This document shows positions 18,456 through 30,130 of a stretch of DNA of 64,000 nucleotides, piece by piece; the stretch's first letter is position 1, and every line of letters starts with the position of its first letter. A model generated the notes under the pieces. It saw nothing but the letters and a program-made list of their open reading frames with translations, did not search any database and had not been told where the DNA came from. Origin of the DNA: Naegleria gruberi. Taxonomy: Eukaryota. A program made the position numbers and the translations under genes. Where the stretch lies: the NCBI GenBank assembly GCA_000004985.1, contig GG738884.1. The stretch is one strand, 5' to 3'.

Positions 18456-20498
18456 TTATCTTCTGTCCTTCTTACCAATCGTTGTCTTACCACTGAACAA
18501 GTGCTTTGGCATCATATTGTAAACAACGTGATCTGTTTCAGCACGTTTACCTTCAGCTTGTATTGTCTTAACCTTCTTATTACGCAAATCAACAGCAGCA
18601 GCTTGCTTCTTTGGATCTTTGATACCAGCAAACTTACCAATCTTGGCAACAAGAGGATTGTGAGGTGTCAAAGTACGAGTTCTCTTACCGAGAGCAGTGT
18701 CATCAATATCAACAGAATCATATTCAGCAGCAGCACGCTTTTCAGAAGCACTTCTATTCATGGCCATCTTGCTTTCACTTCTGGCTCTAGCACCAACACT
18801 CGAAACAGCAAGCTTGTGAGTTCTACCTGATGAAGTAGTTCTAGCAACTGAGTTGGATCTAGCCTTATCCAAAGCTTCTTCTGGAACACCTCTGTTCTTA
18901 AGTTCACCAACAATTGACTTCAAATCAATTGGTTTATCCTTTCTTGTCAACTTAGGATGGTTAGTATTCTTATTATACTTGTTAGTTTGAATGATAATTG
19001 CCTTCTTATCAACAATCTTTTGGTAGTCATCTTCTTCATCAGAGTCAACAAAGTATTCTTCGTCGGCATAGTTAACACCTCCTTCGAATCCACCTTCTTC
19101 TCTGAGTCTTTCTTCTTCTTCAGCTTCGAGTTCTTCCAATCTCTTTTCAATTTCTGGATCCACAAAGTCAGCAATATTCTTTCCGTTAATAAATTCTGGA
19201 ATAATATCATATTTCCATTCTTCGTTCTTTAAAAGATAATGCTTCTTATAATCTGGCATGTAAACACCAGAACCACCTCCTTCATTTTCAAGATGTTTTT
19301 CAGTGATTCTTTCGTCTTCCATTTCATTTTCGATATTTCTCTTCAAAATGACGCTTTCTGGGATTTGTGGCACTCTTGTAATGTCATCTCTCTTCTTTGG
19401 AAGAGCCAAGTGAACTCTGTTCAAAATATTTTCAACTGACTTCTTACCATGACTCATCTTAGCTTCAACTCTGTTTTGGAGCAACAAATCACAAGCTTTA
19501 GTTTTAACTTCATTCAAACCAGATTGGTCAATGTTACTGATAGCAAGCATATCACTACACATATCAGCAACTTCTTGCAACATCTTCTTGTGTAAATCGC
19601 TCAATTCGTCATATTTAACCAAGTCAACCTTTGTTAAAACCAACAAAACTGGTTTACCAGCAAAAAGTGGTTTGACATTCTTGAAAAGGTCACATTGTTG
19701 TTGAATGTTGTATCCACAAGTTTCACTCATATCTAACAAATATAAAATAGTAGAACGCAAGTGAGCCATAGCTGTTATACTTTGCATTTCAATTGTGTTA
19801 CGTTGTTCAAGTGGATGGTCCAAAATACCTGGTGTATCAATCAATTGCCATTTCAAATAACGATATTCCATATGACCAACAAACAAGGATTTGGTTGTGA
19901 AAGGATAAGGTTGAACATCAACTTGAGCACGTGTCATATTATTCATAAAACTAGATTTACCAACGTTTGGATAACCAACTAGAATCAAAGTACGTGATGA
20001 TGGATCAATAGAAGGTAAACGAGCCAAGTGTTGTCTGACTTGTTCAAGATAGATAAGTGATGAATTTTGTTTAGTCAATACTGTAATCATTCTACCCAAA
20101 GCAGCTCTCTTCAATTGTTTGCAACGATATAAAGAGTCACCATATTTAAGTAAACGAACATAATCTCTACCAATAGCATCAACAAGATTTCTGCAGGTAC
20201 TTAATTGACCCAAAGCAAGCTTGTAGTGATCCTTATCATAGAGAACGTTCATCAAATCCTCATAGAATGGGTGAATATCTCCCAATCGTGGGAATTCATC
20301 AAGGATGAGAGTAATTTTATCGTGGATGGCTTGTTGACAAAATTTAACTTTTCTCATGTAGAATCTTCTAATACGATTGATAGCATATTGAGGGTGAATT
20401 TCGGTTGGTGTTTTTCTTTGTGTTTTCGAAAGAACAATGTCCATAAATTCTCTTCCGTTAGGAACTGGTGTAATCTTCTTAAAATTATAAACGACCAT
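18456..20498 (-). CDS. NOG1: Nucleolar GTP-binding protein 1 (NOG1/GTPBP4 family)
   Basis: 680-aa single exon with a NOG1 N-terminal domain and an OBG-type G domain: G1 GYPNVGKSSF, DTPG, and TKVD (NKxD variant). The C-terminal basic NOGCT-like region is present. Confidence 0.9.
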   Translation of the reverse strand: MVVYNFKKITPVPNGREFMDIVLSKTQRKTPTEIHPQYAINRIRRFYMRKVKFCQQAIHDKITLILDEFPRLGDIHPFYEDLMNVLYDKDHYKLALGQLSTCRNLVDAIGRDYVRLLKYGDSLYRCKQLKRAALGRMITVLTKQNSSLIYLEQVRQHLARLPSIDPSSRTLILVGYPNVGKSSFMNNMTRAQVDVQPYPFTTKSLFVGHMEYRYLKWQLIDTPGILDHPLEQRNTIEMQSITAMAHLRSTILYLLDMSETCGYNIQQQCDLFKNVKPLFAGKPVLLVLTKVDLVKYDELSDLHKKMLQEVADMCSDMLAISNIDQSGLNEVKTKACDLLLQNRVEAKMSHGKKSVENILNRVHLALPKKRDDITRVPQIPESVILKRNIENEMEDERITEKHLENEGGGSGVYMPDYKKHYLLKNEEWKYDIIPEFINGKNIADFVDPEIEKRLEELEAEEEERLREEGGFEGGVNYADEEYFVDSDEEDDYQKIVDKKAIIIQTNKYNKNTNHPKLTRKDKPIDLKSIVGELKNRGVPEEALDKARSNSVARTTSSGRTHKLAVSSVGARARSESKMAMNRSASEKRAAAEYDSVDIDDTALGKRTRTLTPHNPLVAKIGKFAGIKDPKKQAAAVDLRNKKVKTIQAEGKRAETDHVVYNMMPKHLFSGKTTIGKKDRR

Positions 20499-22977: not shown

Positions 22978-23050
22978 CGCCCACCGTGGGGGTCGAACCC
23001 ACGACCACAAGGTTAAGAGCCTTGCGCTCTACCGACTGAGCTAGACGGGC
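22978..23050 (-). tRNA. tRNA-Lys (anticodon CUU), copy A
   Basis: 73-nt cloverleaf. Acceptor GCCCGTC/GGTGGGC (two G-U pairs), D arm GCTC-AGTCGGTA-GAGC, anticodon arm CAAGG-CTCTTAA-CCTTG, T arm GTGGG-TTCGACC-CCCAC, discriminator G. Identical in sequence to copy B. Confidence 0.9.
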
Positions 23051-26878: not shown

Positions 26879-27817
26879 ATGAAAAAAACAACCACTTTCA
26901 ATTACAGCTCTTCACAAACAAGCACCTCTTCCGGTGTTGGAGTTAACATGAATTTATCAGAATTTGGTAAATTATTAGGTGGCCAACAACCAACCCAACC
27001 AAATTATCAGCAACCACAACCAGTTCAACCAATTTATCAACAACCAAATTACCAACAACCACCACAATCGTATCAATACCCACCACAACAATATCAACAA
27101 CCAAATTATCAGCAACCACAACCATATCAACCAGTTCAGCAACCAAATTATCAACAACCAGGATATCAATATCCACCACAACAATATCAGCAACCAAATT
27201 ATCAGCAACCACAACCATATCAACCAGTTCAGCCATATCAGCAACCAATTTATCAACCAACTTATCAGCAACCACCAGTTCAGCCAACTCAACCAAAAAA
27301 GCCAACTAAAGCTCCAACTCAACAACCAAAAACGTCAACTCAACCAAATTATCAGCAACCACCAGTTCAACCATATCAACAACCAATTTATCAACAGCCA
27401 ACTGCATTTACACCACAAGTCAGTAGTACCAGTGTTTTAGGTAAGCAAATGATTGATGCATGTAAGAAGAATGCATACACCAGTGACAAATTAAAGACAA
27501 TTACCACTTATGCTTCATCACAATGTTGTCCAATCAGCGTTTCTGAGCTCAACACCATTTTGAAAATGTTCTCATATGTTTCTGACAAGTTGCAAGCATT
27601 GTCAATTTTGAGTAGCTCAAATAATATTGGACCAATGACCACTGCTCAAGCAGCTGAAATAATGAAATCTGTTTCCTATGTCAGTGATAGAATGAAAATA
27701 TTGGAATATATTGTGACCAGTATTTATGACAGAAAGCAATCAACTGAAACAATTACCAAAATGTTTTCCTATTCATCAGATCAACAAAAAGCCAGAGAGT
27801 TATTGTTAAGTAAATAA
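26879..27817 (+). CDS. Q/N/P/Y-rich low-complexity (prion-like) protein with a structured C-terminal triple repeat
   Basis: 312 aa. Residues about 40-180 are degenerate tandem repeats of QQPNYQQPQPYQPVQ. The C-terminal approximately 120 aa hold three copies of a roughly 30-aa motif (MFSYVSDKLQALSILSS / SVSYVSDRMKILEYIVTS / KMFSYSSDQQKARELLLS). Antisense ORFs 26943..27305 and 26975..27325 are repeat artefacts. Confidence 0.6.
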   Translation: MKKTTTFNYSSSQTSTSSGVGVNMNLSEFGKLLGGQQPTQPNYQQPQPVQPIYQQPNYQQPPQSYQYPPQQYQQPNYQQPQPYQPVQQPNYQQPGYQYPPQQYQQPNYQQPQPYQPVQPYQQPIYQPTYQQPPVQPTQPKKPTKAPTQQPKTSTQPNYQQPPVQPYQQPIYQQPTAFTPQVSSTSVLGKQMIDACKKNAYTSDKLKTITTYASSQCCPISVSELNTILKMFSYVSDKLQALSILSSSNNIGPMTTAQAAEIMKSVSYVSDRMKILEYIVTSIYDRKQSTETITKMFSYSSDQQKARELLLSK

Positions 27818-27881: not shown

Positions 27882-27954
27882 GCCCGTCTAGCTCAGTCGG
27901 TAGAGCGCAAGGCTCTTAACCTTGTGGTCGTGGGTTCGACCCCCACGGTGGGCG
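27882..27954 (+). tRNA. tRNA-Lys (anticodon CUU), copy B
   Basis: Same 73-nt sequence as copy A, in inverted orientation 4.8 kb away. Confidence 0.9.
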
Positions 27955-28083
27955 ATTTCATATTTTAGTTTCGCTTTTTGTTCTCTTTTATTTATTTTTG
28001 TTCTGATATGAAGAAGTATCTACAAATAACTCATTTCTTTTTATTATTTCAAAAACTATTTAATTAAAAAATATTTGAAATTA

Positions 28084-28089
28084 AAAAAC
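28084..28089 (-). terminator. Pol III terminator T-run of the SRP RNA gene
   Basis: TTTTTT on the minus strand directly after the last conserved 7SL helix. Confidence 0.6.
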
Positions 28090-28408
28090 ATTAGTCTGAC
28101 TCCCAGATTTCACTCTCTGATAGCTCATGCTCAGTTCTGCAATCTGACCATCCTACAGTGTGAAGGCTATGATTTGCTCAGTTATCCTGCCTCAACCGGT
28201 TCACCTTTCATTAGGACCCTAGTTTCTCCTTATTCATGGGGAGATACTATGGTCACACCGCTATTGGTCAGACAGAACATCGTCACCATATTGCTAACAA
28301 AGGAATGAGTCTGAAGAACCATCCCTTTGCCTGACGCTGTGGCAGAGAACCATAACAGCTACCTCCCTACAGTAGCCCAGCTTATCTATTGGGAACGATC
28401 AGTCGTTA
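28090..28408 (-). ncRNA. Signal recognition particle RNA (7SL/SRP RNA)
   Basis: The minus-strand read contains, in the same order as human 7SL: CTGGGCTACTGTAGGGAGGTAGCTG (Alu-domain CCCAGCUACUCGGGAGGCUG), AATATGGTGAC (AAUAUGGUGACC), and the S-domain helix-8 block GGTGAACCGGTTGAGGCAGGATAACTGAGCAAATCA (human GGUGAACCGGCCCAGGUCGGAAACGGAGCAGGUCAAAAC, with a GNRA loop GATA and an AGCA motif). Local GC is about 48%, against AT-rich flanks. It ends at a T6 run (pol III terminator). The 5' end is placed to within about 15 nt by spacing from the Alu-domain motif. ORF-track ORF 28075..28308 overlaps it and is spurious. Confidence 0.78.
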
Positions 28409-28550
28409 GTTGAATGGATGGATTAAAAAATAATTACAAGCATTTGGTTTTTAAAAATAAACAATATTAATTTGAACAATCACACAGATTGAGTTTGAGG
28501 AATATTGCAAGTAACAGTGAATACTAATATTAAGAAATAAAATAAGTTTA

Positions 28551-30130
28551 CTATTTTTGATCTAACAATGATTGTATGGTTTGTCTCCTCTTAGAAAACA
28601 TTTCCTTAATCTCTTGTATTTGCTTTTGTTCTTCTTCATCCATATTATTCAATTGTCTCTTCAATTCATCTACATTGAGGGCAGAATACAACTTTTTAAG
28701 TTGTTCCATTTCCTCATTATTTACTACTTTTGGTGTGTTATTTTCAACTTTTTTAGGTTGATGTTTCACCATAGTTCCACAATCATCATCATCATCACTG
28801 TCATCACTGTCAGTGCCACTATCAGATGAAGAATCATCCTTCTTCACTGGTTTCTTTGTTATTTTTGTTGTTCCTGTTTGATTATTTGTAGGCTTGTGTT
28901 GGACTAATGTGTCATATCCTTCATCAGAGTCAGAATCACTGTCACCAGAACTATCCGTATCAGTTTCTTCAGTATCACTTCCATTGTTATCATCATTATC
29001 TTCGGCCTTTTTCTTGAAATAATTAAATCTTCCTCCTGCTTCAGCAAATATTTGATTCATCTTTTCAATTAATTCTTGTAAAATTTTAGTTGATTTGGCT
29101 CGTTGAATAAATTTGTGTTTAAGAAGATTTTTAGATGATGGTCTTTCAGCTGGATCTCTTACTAAACAATAAGCAACAAAATCTCTAAATTCTTCAGACC
29201 ATTTTTCAGGGTTTGAAAGTGTTGGTGGAGGTCTGTTTGGAATCATGAAAATTGCACGCATTGGATGAATTCCATGAAGAGGTGGCTTTCCTTCAGCCAT
29301 TTCAATGGCAGTAATACCCAGTGACCAAACATCAGCAGTTCCGTCATATTCAGTTTCTTGAATTACTTCAGGTGCCATCCACTGTTATAATAATAATAAT
29401 AACAACACGTTAATATTATTTAATGAAGGTAATAATGTTAAATATAAAACAGTTAAAATCATTAAAATACTTACATAAGGAGTACCTATCACTGTTCTTC
29501 TCTTGGAAATTGTATTATTTAATTGTGCACTAACACCCTAAAGAAGAAAATCGGATCAAGTTGTAAATACAATGTATACTTACGAAATCAGCTAGTTTTA
29601 CATCTCCTTCATCAGTGAGAAGAATGTTTCCTGCCTTTATATCACGGTGAATCTTCTTTTGAGAGTGTAAATAAACAAGACCTTTCAATGCTGATGAACA
29701 AATAGCAGCAATTTGTGGTTCAGTCAACATTGGTCCAAGAACTGTAAGTAAATCCTGCACGGAACCTCCTCCACAATATTCAATAGCAATTTGGAGTTCT
29801 TGATCTTGTTTGTATGCTCCATAATAATTTACAATATATGGTGATTCACAAGCCTTTAAAATGTTAATTTCCTTCTCAACTTCGGCAATATCATTTTCAA
29901 CTGGTACACATTTCAATGCATAAATATGACCATCGTTTTTATTCATCACTTTCCAAACAACACCATATGAACTAAGTATCATCATAGTAAAAAAATATTA
30001 ATTTATAATAATACAACATTGTTTATATTATTAATAATCTAATGAAAGAGATCTCTTACCCTTCTCCCAACAACTCTAATCTTTGATACACAGTGTTGGT
30101 ATCAACTCCCGTTACATATAATGAAGACAT
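28551..30130 (-). CDS. STE20-family (MST/Hippo-like) Ser/Thr kinase with a C-terminal SARAH-like coiled coil. Four exons: join(28551..29381,29475..29537,29584..29971,30060..30130).
   Basis: Exon 1 (MSSLYVTGVDTNTVYQRLELLGEG) ends GG|GTAAGA. Across an 88-nt intron this reconstitutes the Gly loop GEGSYGVVWKV. Exon 2 holds VAIK-like ALKCV, HRDIKAGNILL and ends at ...KLADF|GTAAGT. A 46-nt intron leads to exon 3 (GVSAQLNNTISKRRTVIGTPY). A 93-nt intron leads to exon 4 (WMAPEVIQETEYDGTADVWSLGITAIEMAEGKPP...). The C-terminus ELKRQLNNMDEEEQKQIQEIKEMFSKRRQTIQSLLDQK resembles the MST1/2 SARAH helix. The acidic S/D-rich linker is typical. Total 450 aa. Confidence 0.85.

What the first reader, a model, noticed from the sequence alone, without database searches (positions are those of the whole stretch)
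28090..28408. SRP (7SL) RNA gene beneath a spurious 77-aa ORF, next to a tRNA gene
This GC-elevated island, about 48% GC against roughly 25-30% in the flanks, carries on its minus strand the conserved 7SL elements in the correct order: the Alu-domain GCUACUGUAGGGAGGUAGCUG block, AAUAUGGUGAC, and the helix-8 core GGUGAACCGG...GCAGGAUAACUGAGCA with a GNRA tetraloop. It ends in a T6 terminator. The gene lies 135 bp from tRNA-Lys copy B, forming a small pol III gene cluster. Such ncRNA genes are often missing from protist annotations.
Basis: seen in the sequence. Interest (0 to 1): 0.6.

Follow-up and report, generated by a model that had tools for sequence, protein, structure and literature searches.

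The report
Naegleria gruberi SRP (7SL) RNA gene

Summary
Confirmed and ordinary. The minus strand of window 28083-28381 encodes a full-length SRP (7SL) RNA of about 297-299 nt. It scores 96.8 bits against Rfam RF00017 (curated threshold 70, E = 2.6e-23) and covers model positions 1-299. Of the 113 consensus base pairs that could be scored, 93 are canonical, and 49 of those differ from the consensus on both sides. The expected parts are present: helices 2, 3 and 4, a UGUNR motif, the helix 5 5e loop, helices 6 and 8 with the SRP54-binding internal loops, and a T6 terminator. The window is Naegleria gruberi, because flanking genes are 100% identical to NAEGRDRAFT proteins. It is not a dictyostelid, as I first suspected. 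The 77-aa plus-strand ORF has a TTG start, no family match and no database entry, so it is spurious.

- The helix 8 apical loop is the 5-nt GAUAA, not a GNRA tetraloop.
- The helix 6 cap is UGAA, not GNAR.
- The AAUAUGGUGAC string is a coincidental identity at a non-homologous position.
- The 5' end is about 27 nt inside the stated coordinates.
- The tRNA-Lys is downstream and convergent, so it cannot act as a trypanosome-style upstream promoter element.

A 2021 paper already reports clear 7SL homologues in Naegleria nuclear genomes. Interest is low.

The parts
28083..28381 (-). SRP (7SL) RNA gene. The likely transcript runs from G28381 to within the U-tract, about 297-299 nt.
   Evidence: Rfam RF00017 96.8 bits, E 2.6e-23, model positions 1-299 on 28380-28084. 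G28381 can pair with C28336 to extend helix 2 to 4 bp, and it corresponds to the 5' G of metazoan 7SL (read from the sequence). The exact ends are inferred, not mapped.
28334..28381 (-). Alu 5' domain. Helix 2 is 28381-28378 paired with 28339-28336. Helix 3 is 28377-28371 paired with 28364 and 28362-28357, with loop GUAGGG. Helix 4 is 28352-28350 paired with 28342-28340, with loop UUCUCUG.
   Evidence: Pair table from the covariance-model alignment: every helix 2-4 pair is canonical except the consensus G.G. The H3-loop AGGG (28368-28365) is complementary to the H4-loop CUCU (28347-28344), which would allow the loop-loop tertiary contact.
28353..28357 (-). UGUNR motif (UGUUA) between helices 3 and 4, the U-turn of the SRP9/14 binding site.
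   Evidence: It aligns to the consensus UGUAA. The motif is defined in PMC4605306. In strain L001 only the free N position differs, giving UGUGA.
28141..28143 (-). 5e motif: a 3-nt asymmetric loop AUU in the 3' strand of helix 5. A28143 corresponds to the conserved SRP72-binding adenosine.
   Evidence: It aligns to the three unpaired consensus positions 'AUa', flanked by the pairs C28271-G28144 and U28272.G28140. The motif is described in PMC4605306.
28215..28254 (-). Helix 6, the SRP19-binding hairpin. Its cap is UGAA (28236-28233), closed by A28237-U28232 above two C.A mismatches.
   Evidence: Covariance-model alignment and pair table. The isolated hairpin folds at z = -3.5, and 0 of 200 shuffles fold as well.
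28162..28208 (-). Helix 8, the SRP54 M-domain site. The asymmetric loop is AAC(C) 28201-28198 opposite U28169 (and A28170). The symmetric loop is GAGG 28193-28190 opposite AGCA 28178-28175. The apical stem is CAG/CUG and the apical pentaloop is GAUAA 28186-28182.
   Evidence: Covariance-model alignment and pair table. The same fold is predicted independently for the isolated helix and for the 141-nt S domain, the latter at z = -3.1.
28083..28088 (-). T6 run, the RNA polymerase III terminator and 3' U-tract.
   Evidence: T-run scan and the sequence itself. The role of T-runs as pol III terminators is established knowledge; for scR1 see PMC4176351, listed.
28382..28550 (-). 169-nt 5' flank between the kinase stop codon and the RNA gene. 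The promoter is presumed to lie here but was not identified.
   Evidence: There is no canonical TATA box near -30, only weak one-mismatch matches at -7 and -74, and weak internal A/B-box-like matches. It is not conserved with the sequence downstream of the kinase gene in L003 or L005.
27882..27954 (+). tRNA-Lys(CUU) gene, convergent with the SRP RNA gene (3' end facing 3' end).
   Evidence: ARAGORN and Rfam tRNA at 66.4 bits. An identical copy lies at 22978-23050 on the minus strand.
28075..28308 (+). Spurious 77-codon ORF antisense to the RNA gene.
   Evidence: TTG start only. No Pfam match at E <= 1. The exact sequence is absent from the protein collection.
28551..29378 (-). 3' exon of the STE20/MST-like kinase gene NAEGRDRAFT_80621. 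It is the upstream neighbour and is used here to identify the organism.
   Evidence: The exact 275-aa ORF clusters with XP_002674446.1 of Naegleria gruberi. Pfam assigns Pkinase.

Best explanation
Window 28083-28381 (minus strand) is the nuclear gene for the RNA component of the cytosolic signal recognition particle (7SL / SRP RNA) of Naegleria gruberi. It is most likely transcribed by RNA polymerase III from about G28381 and terminated in the T6 run (inferred). The roughly 298-nt RNA folds into the canonical eukaryotic two-domain shape. The Alu domain (helices 2-4, the UGUNR turn and the ends of helix 5) would bind SRP9/14 and pause elongation. The S domain (distal helix 5 with the 5e loop, helix 6 and helix 8) would scaffold SRP68/72, SRP19 and SRP54, which recognises signal peptides and docks at the ER receptor. 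The fold and the motifs are shown here. The protein binding, the polymerase and the exact ends are inferred from the family. The antisense 77-aa ORF is a chance ORF. The neighbouring tRNA-Lys is an independent pol III gene.
For: The RNA matches Rfam RF00017 over the full model at 96.8 bits against a gathering score of 70, with E 2.6e-23 in the whole window and 5.3e-25 locally. Four further SRP-clan families also match.

93 of 113 scorable consensus pairs are canonical, and 49 of them differ from the consensus on both sides, which means structure is conserved beyond sequence.

All the expected elements are present: UGUNR, helices 3 and 4 with complementary loops, the 5e loop, and the helix 8 symmetric (GAGG/AGCA) and asymmetric loops.

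The S domain folds on its own into the helix 5/6/8 junction at z = -3.1, and helix 6 alone folds at z = -3.5.

The length is about 298 nt and a T6 terminator is present.

An independent near-identical strain from a metagenome (L001) has three substitutions in 225 nt. All are structure-neutral: the N of UGUNR, a helix 4 loop base, and U.G to C-G.

The organism is fixed as N. gruberi by 100% protein identities. PMC8321541 reports clear 7SL homologues in the nuclear genomes of three Naegleria species.
Against: No expression data could be consulted, so the transcript ends and the polymerase are inferred. No promoter element was recognised. No orthologue from another heterolobosean could be retrieved, so within-lineage covariation is untested. 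The apical loops of helices 6 and 8 depart from the GNAR/GNRA consensus. Nearest-neighbour folding prefers an alternative to the helix 3 + helix 4 fold of the Alu 5' domain, at -16.2 against -10.7 kcal/mol. That alternative uses the loop-loop complementarity. Whether this is the only copy, or the expressed copy, in the genome could not be checked beyond the 64-kb window.
Confidence: 0.95

Rival explanations
1. The locus is a non-functional duplicate or pseudogene of the SRP RNA gene, and the working copy lies elsewhere in the N. gruberi genome.
For: The gene's position is not conserved next to the orthologous neighbours in N. fowleri, N. lovaniensis, Willaertia magna or two unnamed relatives. 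The helix 6 and helix 8 apical loops are non-consensus. No promoter element was recognised. Genome-wide copy number could not be examined.
Against: The match is full-length with every conserved internal loop intact and 82% of consensus pairs canonical. The terminator is intact. The same loop sequences occur in an independent strain, whose three substitutions are all structure-neutral. The window holds no other copy.
Confidence: 0.04
2. The plus-strand 77-codon ORF (28075-28308) is a real small protein gene, and the RNA-family match on the other strand is incidental.
For: An uninterrupted 77-codon reading frame exists.
Against: The ORF starts with TTG and has no ATG before codon 59, which does not suit a eukaryotic nuclear gene. 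It has no Pfam match at E <= 1. The sequence is absent from about 15 billion deposited proteins. The opposite strand matches the SRP RNA model at E 2.6e-23.
Confidence: 0.005
3. The SRP RNA gene depends on the neighbouring tRNA-Lys gene for its promoter. In trypanosomatids, the A and B boxes of an upstream, oppositely oriented tRNA gene drive 7SL transcription.
For: Naegleria and trypanosomatids both belong to Discoba (established knowledge). A tRNA gene lies within about 130 nt of the SRP RNA gene. The trypanosome mechanism is described in PMC2943599.
Against: The geometry is wrong. The tRNA lies downstream of the SRP RNA 3' end and the two genes converge, while the 5' flank of the SRP RNA gene abuts a kinase gene and holds no tRNA or tRNA-like element.
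Confidence: 0.02

Closest known systems
Eukaryotic 7SL / SRP RNA of the metazoan type (Rfam RF00017, clan CL00003), e.g. human RN7SL1
   Same: The length is about 300 nt. The Alu domain has helices 2, 3 and 4 and UGUNR. Helix 5 is long and carries the 5e 3-nt loop. Helices 6 and 8 form a three-way junction. Helix 8 has the AGG/AGCA symmetric loop and the AAC asymmetric loop. The gene ends in a U-tract.
   Different: The helix 8 apical loop is the 5-nt GAUAA instead of a 4-nt GNRA-type loop. The helix 6 cap is UGAA above two C.A mismatches instead of GNAR. Helix 5 is shorter by 5 consensus pairs, a deletion in the model alignment. The sequence is AT-richer at 46% GC.
Naegleria 7SL homologues reported by Pyrih et al. 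2021 (PMC8321541)
   Same: The organism group and the detection method (an Rfam covariance model run on nuclear assemblies of three Naegleria species) are the same. This is very probably the same gene.
   Different: The paper gives no coordinates, sequence or structure, and none appear in its held supplements. Identity with this locus is therefore inferred, not shown.
Trypanosomatid 7SL RNA genes
   Same: Both are discoban protists, and in both the 7SL gene lies among tRNA genes, including tRNA-Lys, in pol III loci (PMC2695483).
   Different: Trypanosomatid 7SL uses an upstream, divergently oriented tRNA gene as its promoter (PMC2943599). Here the tRNA is downstream and convergent. From general knowledge, not tested here, the trypanosomatid SRP RNA has a reduced Alu domain supplemented by a tRNA-like sRNA, whereas this RNA has a complete helix 3/4 Alu domain.

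Membership tests
Eukaryotic SRP (7SL) RNA, Rfam RF00017 / clan CL00003 | The covariance-model score reaches the curated gathering threshold over the full model. | tested here: met
   96.8 bits against 70, model positions 1-299 of 299, E 2.6e-23.
Eukaryotic SRP (7SL) RNA, Rfam RF00017 / clan CL00003 | An Alu domain with helices 3 and 4, separated by a UGUNR motif, and with loops able to form a tertiary contact. | tested here: met
   Helices 2-4 are all canonical. UGUUA lies at 28357-28353. The H3 loop AGGG is complementary to the H4 loop CUCU. The feature is defined in PMC4605306.
Eukaryotic SRP (7SL) RNA, Rfam RF00017 / clan CL00003 | Helix 5 carries the 5e motif, a 3-nt asymmetric loop with a conserved adenosine. 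| tested here: met
   AUU at 28143-28141 aligns to the consensus 'AUa' between two paired segments.
Eukaryotic SRP (7SL) RNA, Rfam RF00017 / clan CL00003 | Helix 8 has the conserved symmetric (AGG / AGCA) and asymmetric internal loops that bind SRP54. | tested here: met
   GAGG 28193-28190 opposite AGCA 28178-28175, and AAC 28201-28199 opposite U28169. The fold is reproduced by independent folding.
Eukaryotic SRP (7SL) RNA, Rfam RF00017 / clan CL00003 | Helix 8 is closed by a GNRA-type (GNAR) tetraloop. | tested here: not met
   The loop is GAUAA, 5 nt, and the model has to insert the U. It is identical in strain L001. It could mimic GA-AA with the U flipped out, but that is inference only. 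This single deviation does not bring the score below threshold.
Eukaryotic SRP (7SL) RNA, Rfam RF00017 / clan CL00003 | Helix 6 is closed by a GNAR tetraloop with adenine at the third position (SRP19 site). | tested here: inconclusive
   The best reading is UGAA (28236-28233), closed by A-U above two C.A mismatches. The third-position adenine is kept and the first G is not. Thermodynamic folding instead leaves a 10-nt loop. The feature is defined in PMC4615810.
Eukaryotic SRP (7SL) RNA, Rfam RF00017 / clan CL00003 | A pol III gene with a T-run terminator and a product of about 300 nt. | tested here: met
   T6 at 28088-28083, and 297-299 nt from G28381. The polymerase itself was not tested.
Eukaryotic SRP (7SL) RNA, Rfam RF00017 / clan CL00003 | It is expressed as a stable RNA and assembled with the SRP proteins. 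| not testable with these tools
   No transcriptome or biochemical data are accessible here.
Trypanosomatid-type tRNA-dependent 7SL promoter | A tRNA gene lies upstream of the 7SL gene in the opposite orientation and supplies A/B boxes as promoter elements. | tested here: not met
   The only nearby tRNA (27882-27954, plus strand) is downstream and convergent. The 5' flank 28382-28550 holds no tRNA. The feature is defined in PMC2943599.

The most novel reading that the evidence does not exclude
Naegleria gruberi SRP RNA caps helix 8 with a GAUAA pentaloop and helix 6 with UGAA above tandem C.A mismatches, in place of the near-universal GNRA/GNAR tetraloops. Those two tetraloops supply the A-A contact that SRP19 uses to clamp helices 6 and 8 together. 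Naegleria may therefore assemble its S domain with a modified apical clamp, a lineage-specific variant that has not been described. The sequence fact is solid, since it appears in two independent assemblies. What is uncertain is whether the feature is structurally meaningful, whether it is conserved across Heterolobosea, and whether it is really unreported.
Probability: 0.25. Interest if true: 0.25.

Novelty: already known. Interest (0 to 1): 0.1.

Why it matters
It matters little beyond annotation hygiene. SRP RNA is universal, and this copy is found by the standard Rfam model above its curated threshold. A published screen already reported 7SL homologues in Naegleria nuclear genomes. The practical value is an exact, structure-annotated location for the N. 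gruberi gene, which sits in an intergenic gap next to NAEGRDRAFT_80621. It also gives a warning that an antisense 77-codon ORF there should not be called as a protein. The non-consensus helix 6 and helix 8 caps could interest SRP structural specialists if they prove conserved in Heterolobosea.

Tried and rejected
(1) Dictyostelid origin. I first suspected this from the AT-rich, Q/P-repeat context and searched for the DUSE literature. The kinase and NOG1 homology searches rejected it in favour of Naegleria.

(2) Orthologous SRP RNA genes by synteny. I searched loci around the kinase orthologues (L003, L004 from Willaertia, L005), around NOG1 in N. lovaniensis (L126) and around the OCD gene in N. 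fowleri and N. lovaniensis (L127-L129). None holds an SRP RNA. The exact-protein look-ups gave no N. gruberi contig: the two N. gruberi protein ids and two window ORFs all drew blanks. The public annotation of this spot therefore could not be inspected.

(3) Metagenome DNA scan with a helix 8 pattern. It returned 120 stretches. Nearly all were chance matches in GC-rich bacterial DNA, plus what look by eye like a few bacterial 4.5S RNAs and one metazoan-type 7SL, L007. None was a heterolobosean relative, so no within-lineage covariation analysis and no custom covariance model were attempted.

(4) Promoter search. No canonical TATA box and no convincing A/B boxes were found. The sigma-70 and intrinsic-terminator scan is irrelevant to a eukaryote and only picked up helix 3. 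The sequences downstream of the kinase gene in the relatives share nothing with this 5' flank.

(5) The supplements of PMC8321541 were searched for the 7SL coordinates and held nothing.

(6) Strain divergence in the RNA (3 of 225) against the spacer (6 of 169) is in the expected direction but not significant, with Fisher p = 0.18.

(7) Whole-molecule minimum-energy folding gives only z = -2.2 and misfolds the Alu domain. I relied instead on the covariance-model mapping and on folding each domain separately.

Full report
THE OBSERVATION
The minus strand of window 28084-28380 matches Rfam RF00017 (Metazoa_SRP) from model position 1 to 299. The score is 96.8 bits against a curated threshold of 70, with E = 2.6e-23 for the whole 64-kb window. 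A local search gives E = 5.3e-25, with four further SRP-clan families suppressed as lower-scoring overlaps.

The gene is 46.1% GC. Adjacent 200-nt windows read 25-33%, and the whole window is 34.4%. A 77-codon ORF with a TTG start lies antisense at 28075-28308. A T6 run closes the gene at 28088-28083. tRNA-Lys(CUU) is at 27882-27954 on the plus strand.

ANATOMY
I mapped the Rfam consensus structure onto the sequence pair by pair. Of 113 scorable consensus pairs, 93 are canonical. Of those 93, 32 are identical to the consensus, 12 differ on one side and 49 differ on both sides. The structure is therefore conserved well beyond primary sequence.

The Alu domain is complete.
- Helix 2 is 28380-28378 paired with 28339-28337, and G28381-C28336 can extend it.
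- Helix 3 is 28377-28371 paired with 28364 and 28362-28357.
- The UGUNR motif is UGUUA at 28357-28353.
- Helix 4 is 28352-28350 paired with 28342-28340.
- The helix 3 loop contains AGGG and the helix 4 loop contains CUCU. This is the complementarity the known loop-loop tertiary contact needs.
- It also explains why nearest-neighbour folding prefers an alternative hairpin that pairs those two segments, at -16.2 against -10.7 kcal/mol for the canonical fold.

Helix 5 carries the 3-nt 5e loop AUU at 28143-28141, aligned to the consensus AUa.

The S domain (28140-28280) folds on its own into the helix 5/6/8 junction at z = -3.1, and only 1 of 200 shuffles folds as well. Helix 8 has the SRP54-binding symmetric loop (GAGG opposite AGCA) and the asymmetric loop (AAC opposite U). 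The motif definitions come from PMC4605306 and PMC4615810.

1. The helix 8 apical loop is GAUAA, five nucleotides at 28186-28182, closed by CAG/CUG. The covariance model has to insert the U. It is not a GNRA tetraloop.
2. The helix 6 cap is best read as UGAA closed by A-U above two C.A mismatches. Thermodynamic folding leaves it as a 10-nt loop. The third-position adenine of the GNAR consensus is kept and the first G is not.
3. The 11-mer AAUAUGGUGAC sits 87 nt before GGUGAAC here, inside the 5' strand of helix 5. In a metazoan-type 7SL recovered by chance from a metagenome (L007), the same string sits 49 nt before GGUGAAC, at the helix 5/6 junction. The covariance model aligns the window's copy to a different part of the model. 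The identity is coincidental.
4. The RNA starts at about 28381, not 28408.

ORGANISM
The AT-rich, Q/P-repeat context first suggested a dictyostelid, but the evidence says otherwise.
- The flanking STE20/MST-like kinase has Willaertia magna as its best named hit, at 63%.
- The 680-aa NOG1 ORF is residue-for-residue identical to the N. gruberi protein, apart from a segment near residues 558-620. There the public gene model lacks 43 residues and reads about 20 more differently.
- The ornithine-cyclodeaminase-family ORF is 100% identical to a N. gruberi protein on the same 363-kb scaffold.
- The kinase exon clusters with XP_002674446.1 / NAEGRDRAFT_80621.
The window is therefore Naegleria gruberi.

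CONTEXT AND COMPARISON
The SRP RNA gene lies 169 nt downstream of the kinase stop codon and on the same strand. It converges on tRNA-Lys, with 128 nt between the two 3' ends. This is the opposite of the trypanosomatid arrangement, where an upstream, divergently oriented tRNA gene supplies promoter elements to 7SL (PMC2943599; PMC2695483). I found no canonical TATA box and no convincing A/B boxes, so the promoter remains unidentified.

The gene is not syntenic elsewhere. The loci around the kinase orthologues in Willaertia and two unnamed relatives lack an SRP RNA, as do the loci around NOG1 in N. lovaniensis and around the OCD gene in N. fowleri and N. lovaniensis. N. fowleri has a 5S rRNA gene beside OCD instead. 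A metagenome-wide helix 8 pattern scan returned no heterolobosean relative. Covariation within the lineage could therefore not be tested.

The only independent sequence is a near-identical strain in metagenome ERR1078381 (L001). It has three substitutions in 225 nt of RNA, all structure-neutral: the free N of UGUNR, a helix 4 loop base, and U.G to C-G. The 169-nt spacer has six substitutions and a 2-nt indel. The difference is in the expected direction but is not significant (p = 0.18). L001 carries the same GAUAA and UGAA loops, so they are not assembly errors.

THE ANTISENSE ORF
It has only a TTG start, matches no Pfam family at E <= 1 and is absent from a collection of about 15 billion proteins. 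It is a chance ORF in a GC-enriched stretch.

MECHANISM
The fold and the motifs are shown here, and everything in this paragraph is inferred from the family. The RNA would be a pol III transcript of about 298 nt that scaffolds the cytosolic SRP. The Alu domain would bind SRP9/14 for elongation arrest. Helix 6 would bind SRP19, helix 8 SRP54, and the junction with the 5e loop SRP68/72.

KNOWN OR NEW
Pyrih et al. 2021 (PMC8321541) screened nuclear assemblies of three Naegleria species with the Rfam protozoan SRP model. They state that it identified clear homologues, but give no coordinates. The gene is also found by a stock Rfam scan above threshold. I therefore rate it as already known. What this work adds is an exact, structure-annotated location and a set of small corrections.

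The only mildly unusual aspect is the non-consensus capping of helices 6 and 8. These are the two loops that SRP19 clamps together in other eukaryotes (PMC4615810). Whether that is a conserved heterolobosean variant needs orthologues that I could not reach.

VERDICT
My confidence that this is the SRP RNA gene is about 0.95. The residual doubt is whether this copy is the expressed one. Interest is 0.1.

Noticed in passing
window 18456-20498 (-): The uninterrupted 680-aa NOG1 ORF matches the N. lovaniensis (684 aa) and Willaertia (681 aa) proteins end to end. The public N. gruberi model (637 aa) lacks 43 residues and reads about 20 more differently. The public model probably contains a false intron.
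   Followed up: partly
window 22978-23050 (-) and 27882-27954 (+): There are two identical 73-nt tRNA-Lys(CUU) genes about 4.8 kb apart in inverted orientation. Similarity extends only about 6 nt upstream and about 13 nt downstream of the tRNA, so this is not a segmental duplication.
   Followed up: partly
L127 9688-9808 and L128 8491-8611 (N. fowleri): A 5S rRNA gene (94.7 bits) sits directly upstream of the OCD-family gene in N. fowleri. None was detected at the corresponding spot in the N. gruberi window or in N. lovaniensis (L129). Small pol III genes appear scattered among Naegleria species and are not syntenic.
   Followed up: no
L001 / L002 (metagenome ERR1078381, PRJEB11402): An environmental sample holds a strain nearly identical to N. 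gruberi across the kinase-SRP RNA locus. The kinase exon is identical at protein level, and the non-coding DNA differs by about 1-4%.
   Followed up: partly
window 26879-27817 (+): A 312-aa ORF has a long PNYQQP/QPYQP repeat region followed by two DUF4476 domains. The exact sequence is not in the protein collection, although N. fowleri and N. lovaniensis have an unannotated 303-305-aa gene at the same position after OCD.
   Followed up: no
window 28551-29985 (-): The STE20/MST-like kinase NAEGRDRAFT_80621 is split into two ORFs, 29530-29985 and 28551-29378, with about 150 nt between them. This fits a single intron. The prokaryote-style gene calls in the metagenome assemblies report the two halves as separate proteins.
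   Followed up: no
L007 (metagenome contig OJKR01012388.1) about 330-620: A metazoan, mammal-like 7SL sequence sits in an environmental metagenome contig. It is probably host or contaminant DNA, or a 7SL-derived element. Here it served only as a positional comparator.
   Followed up: no
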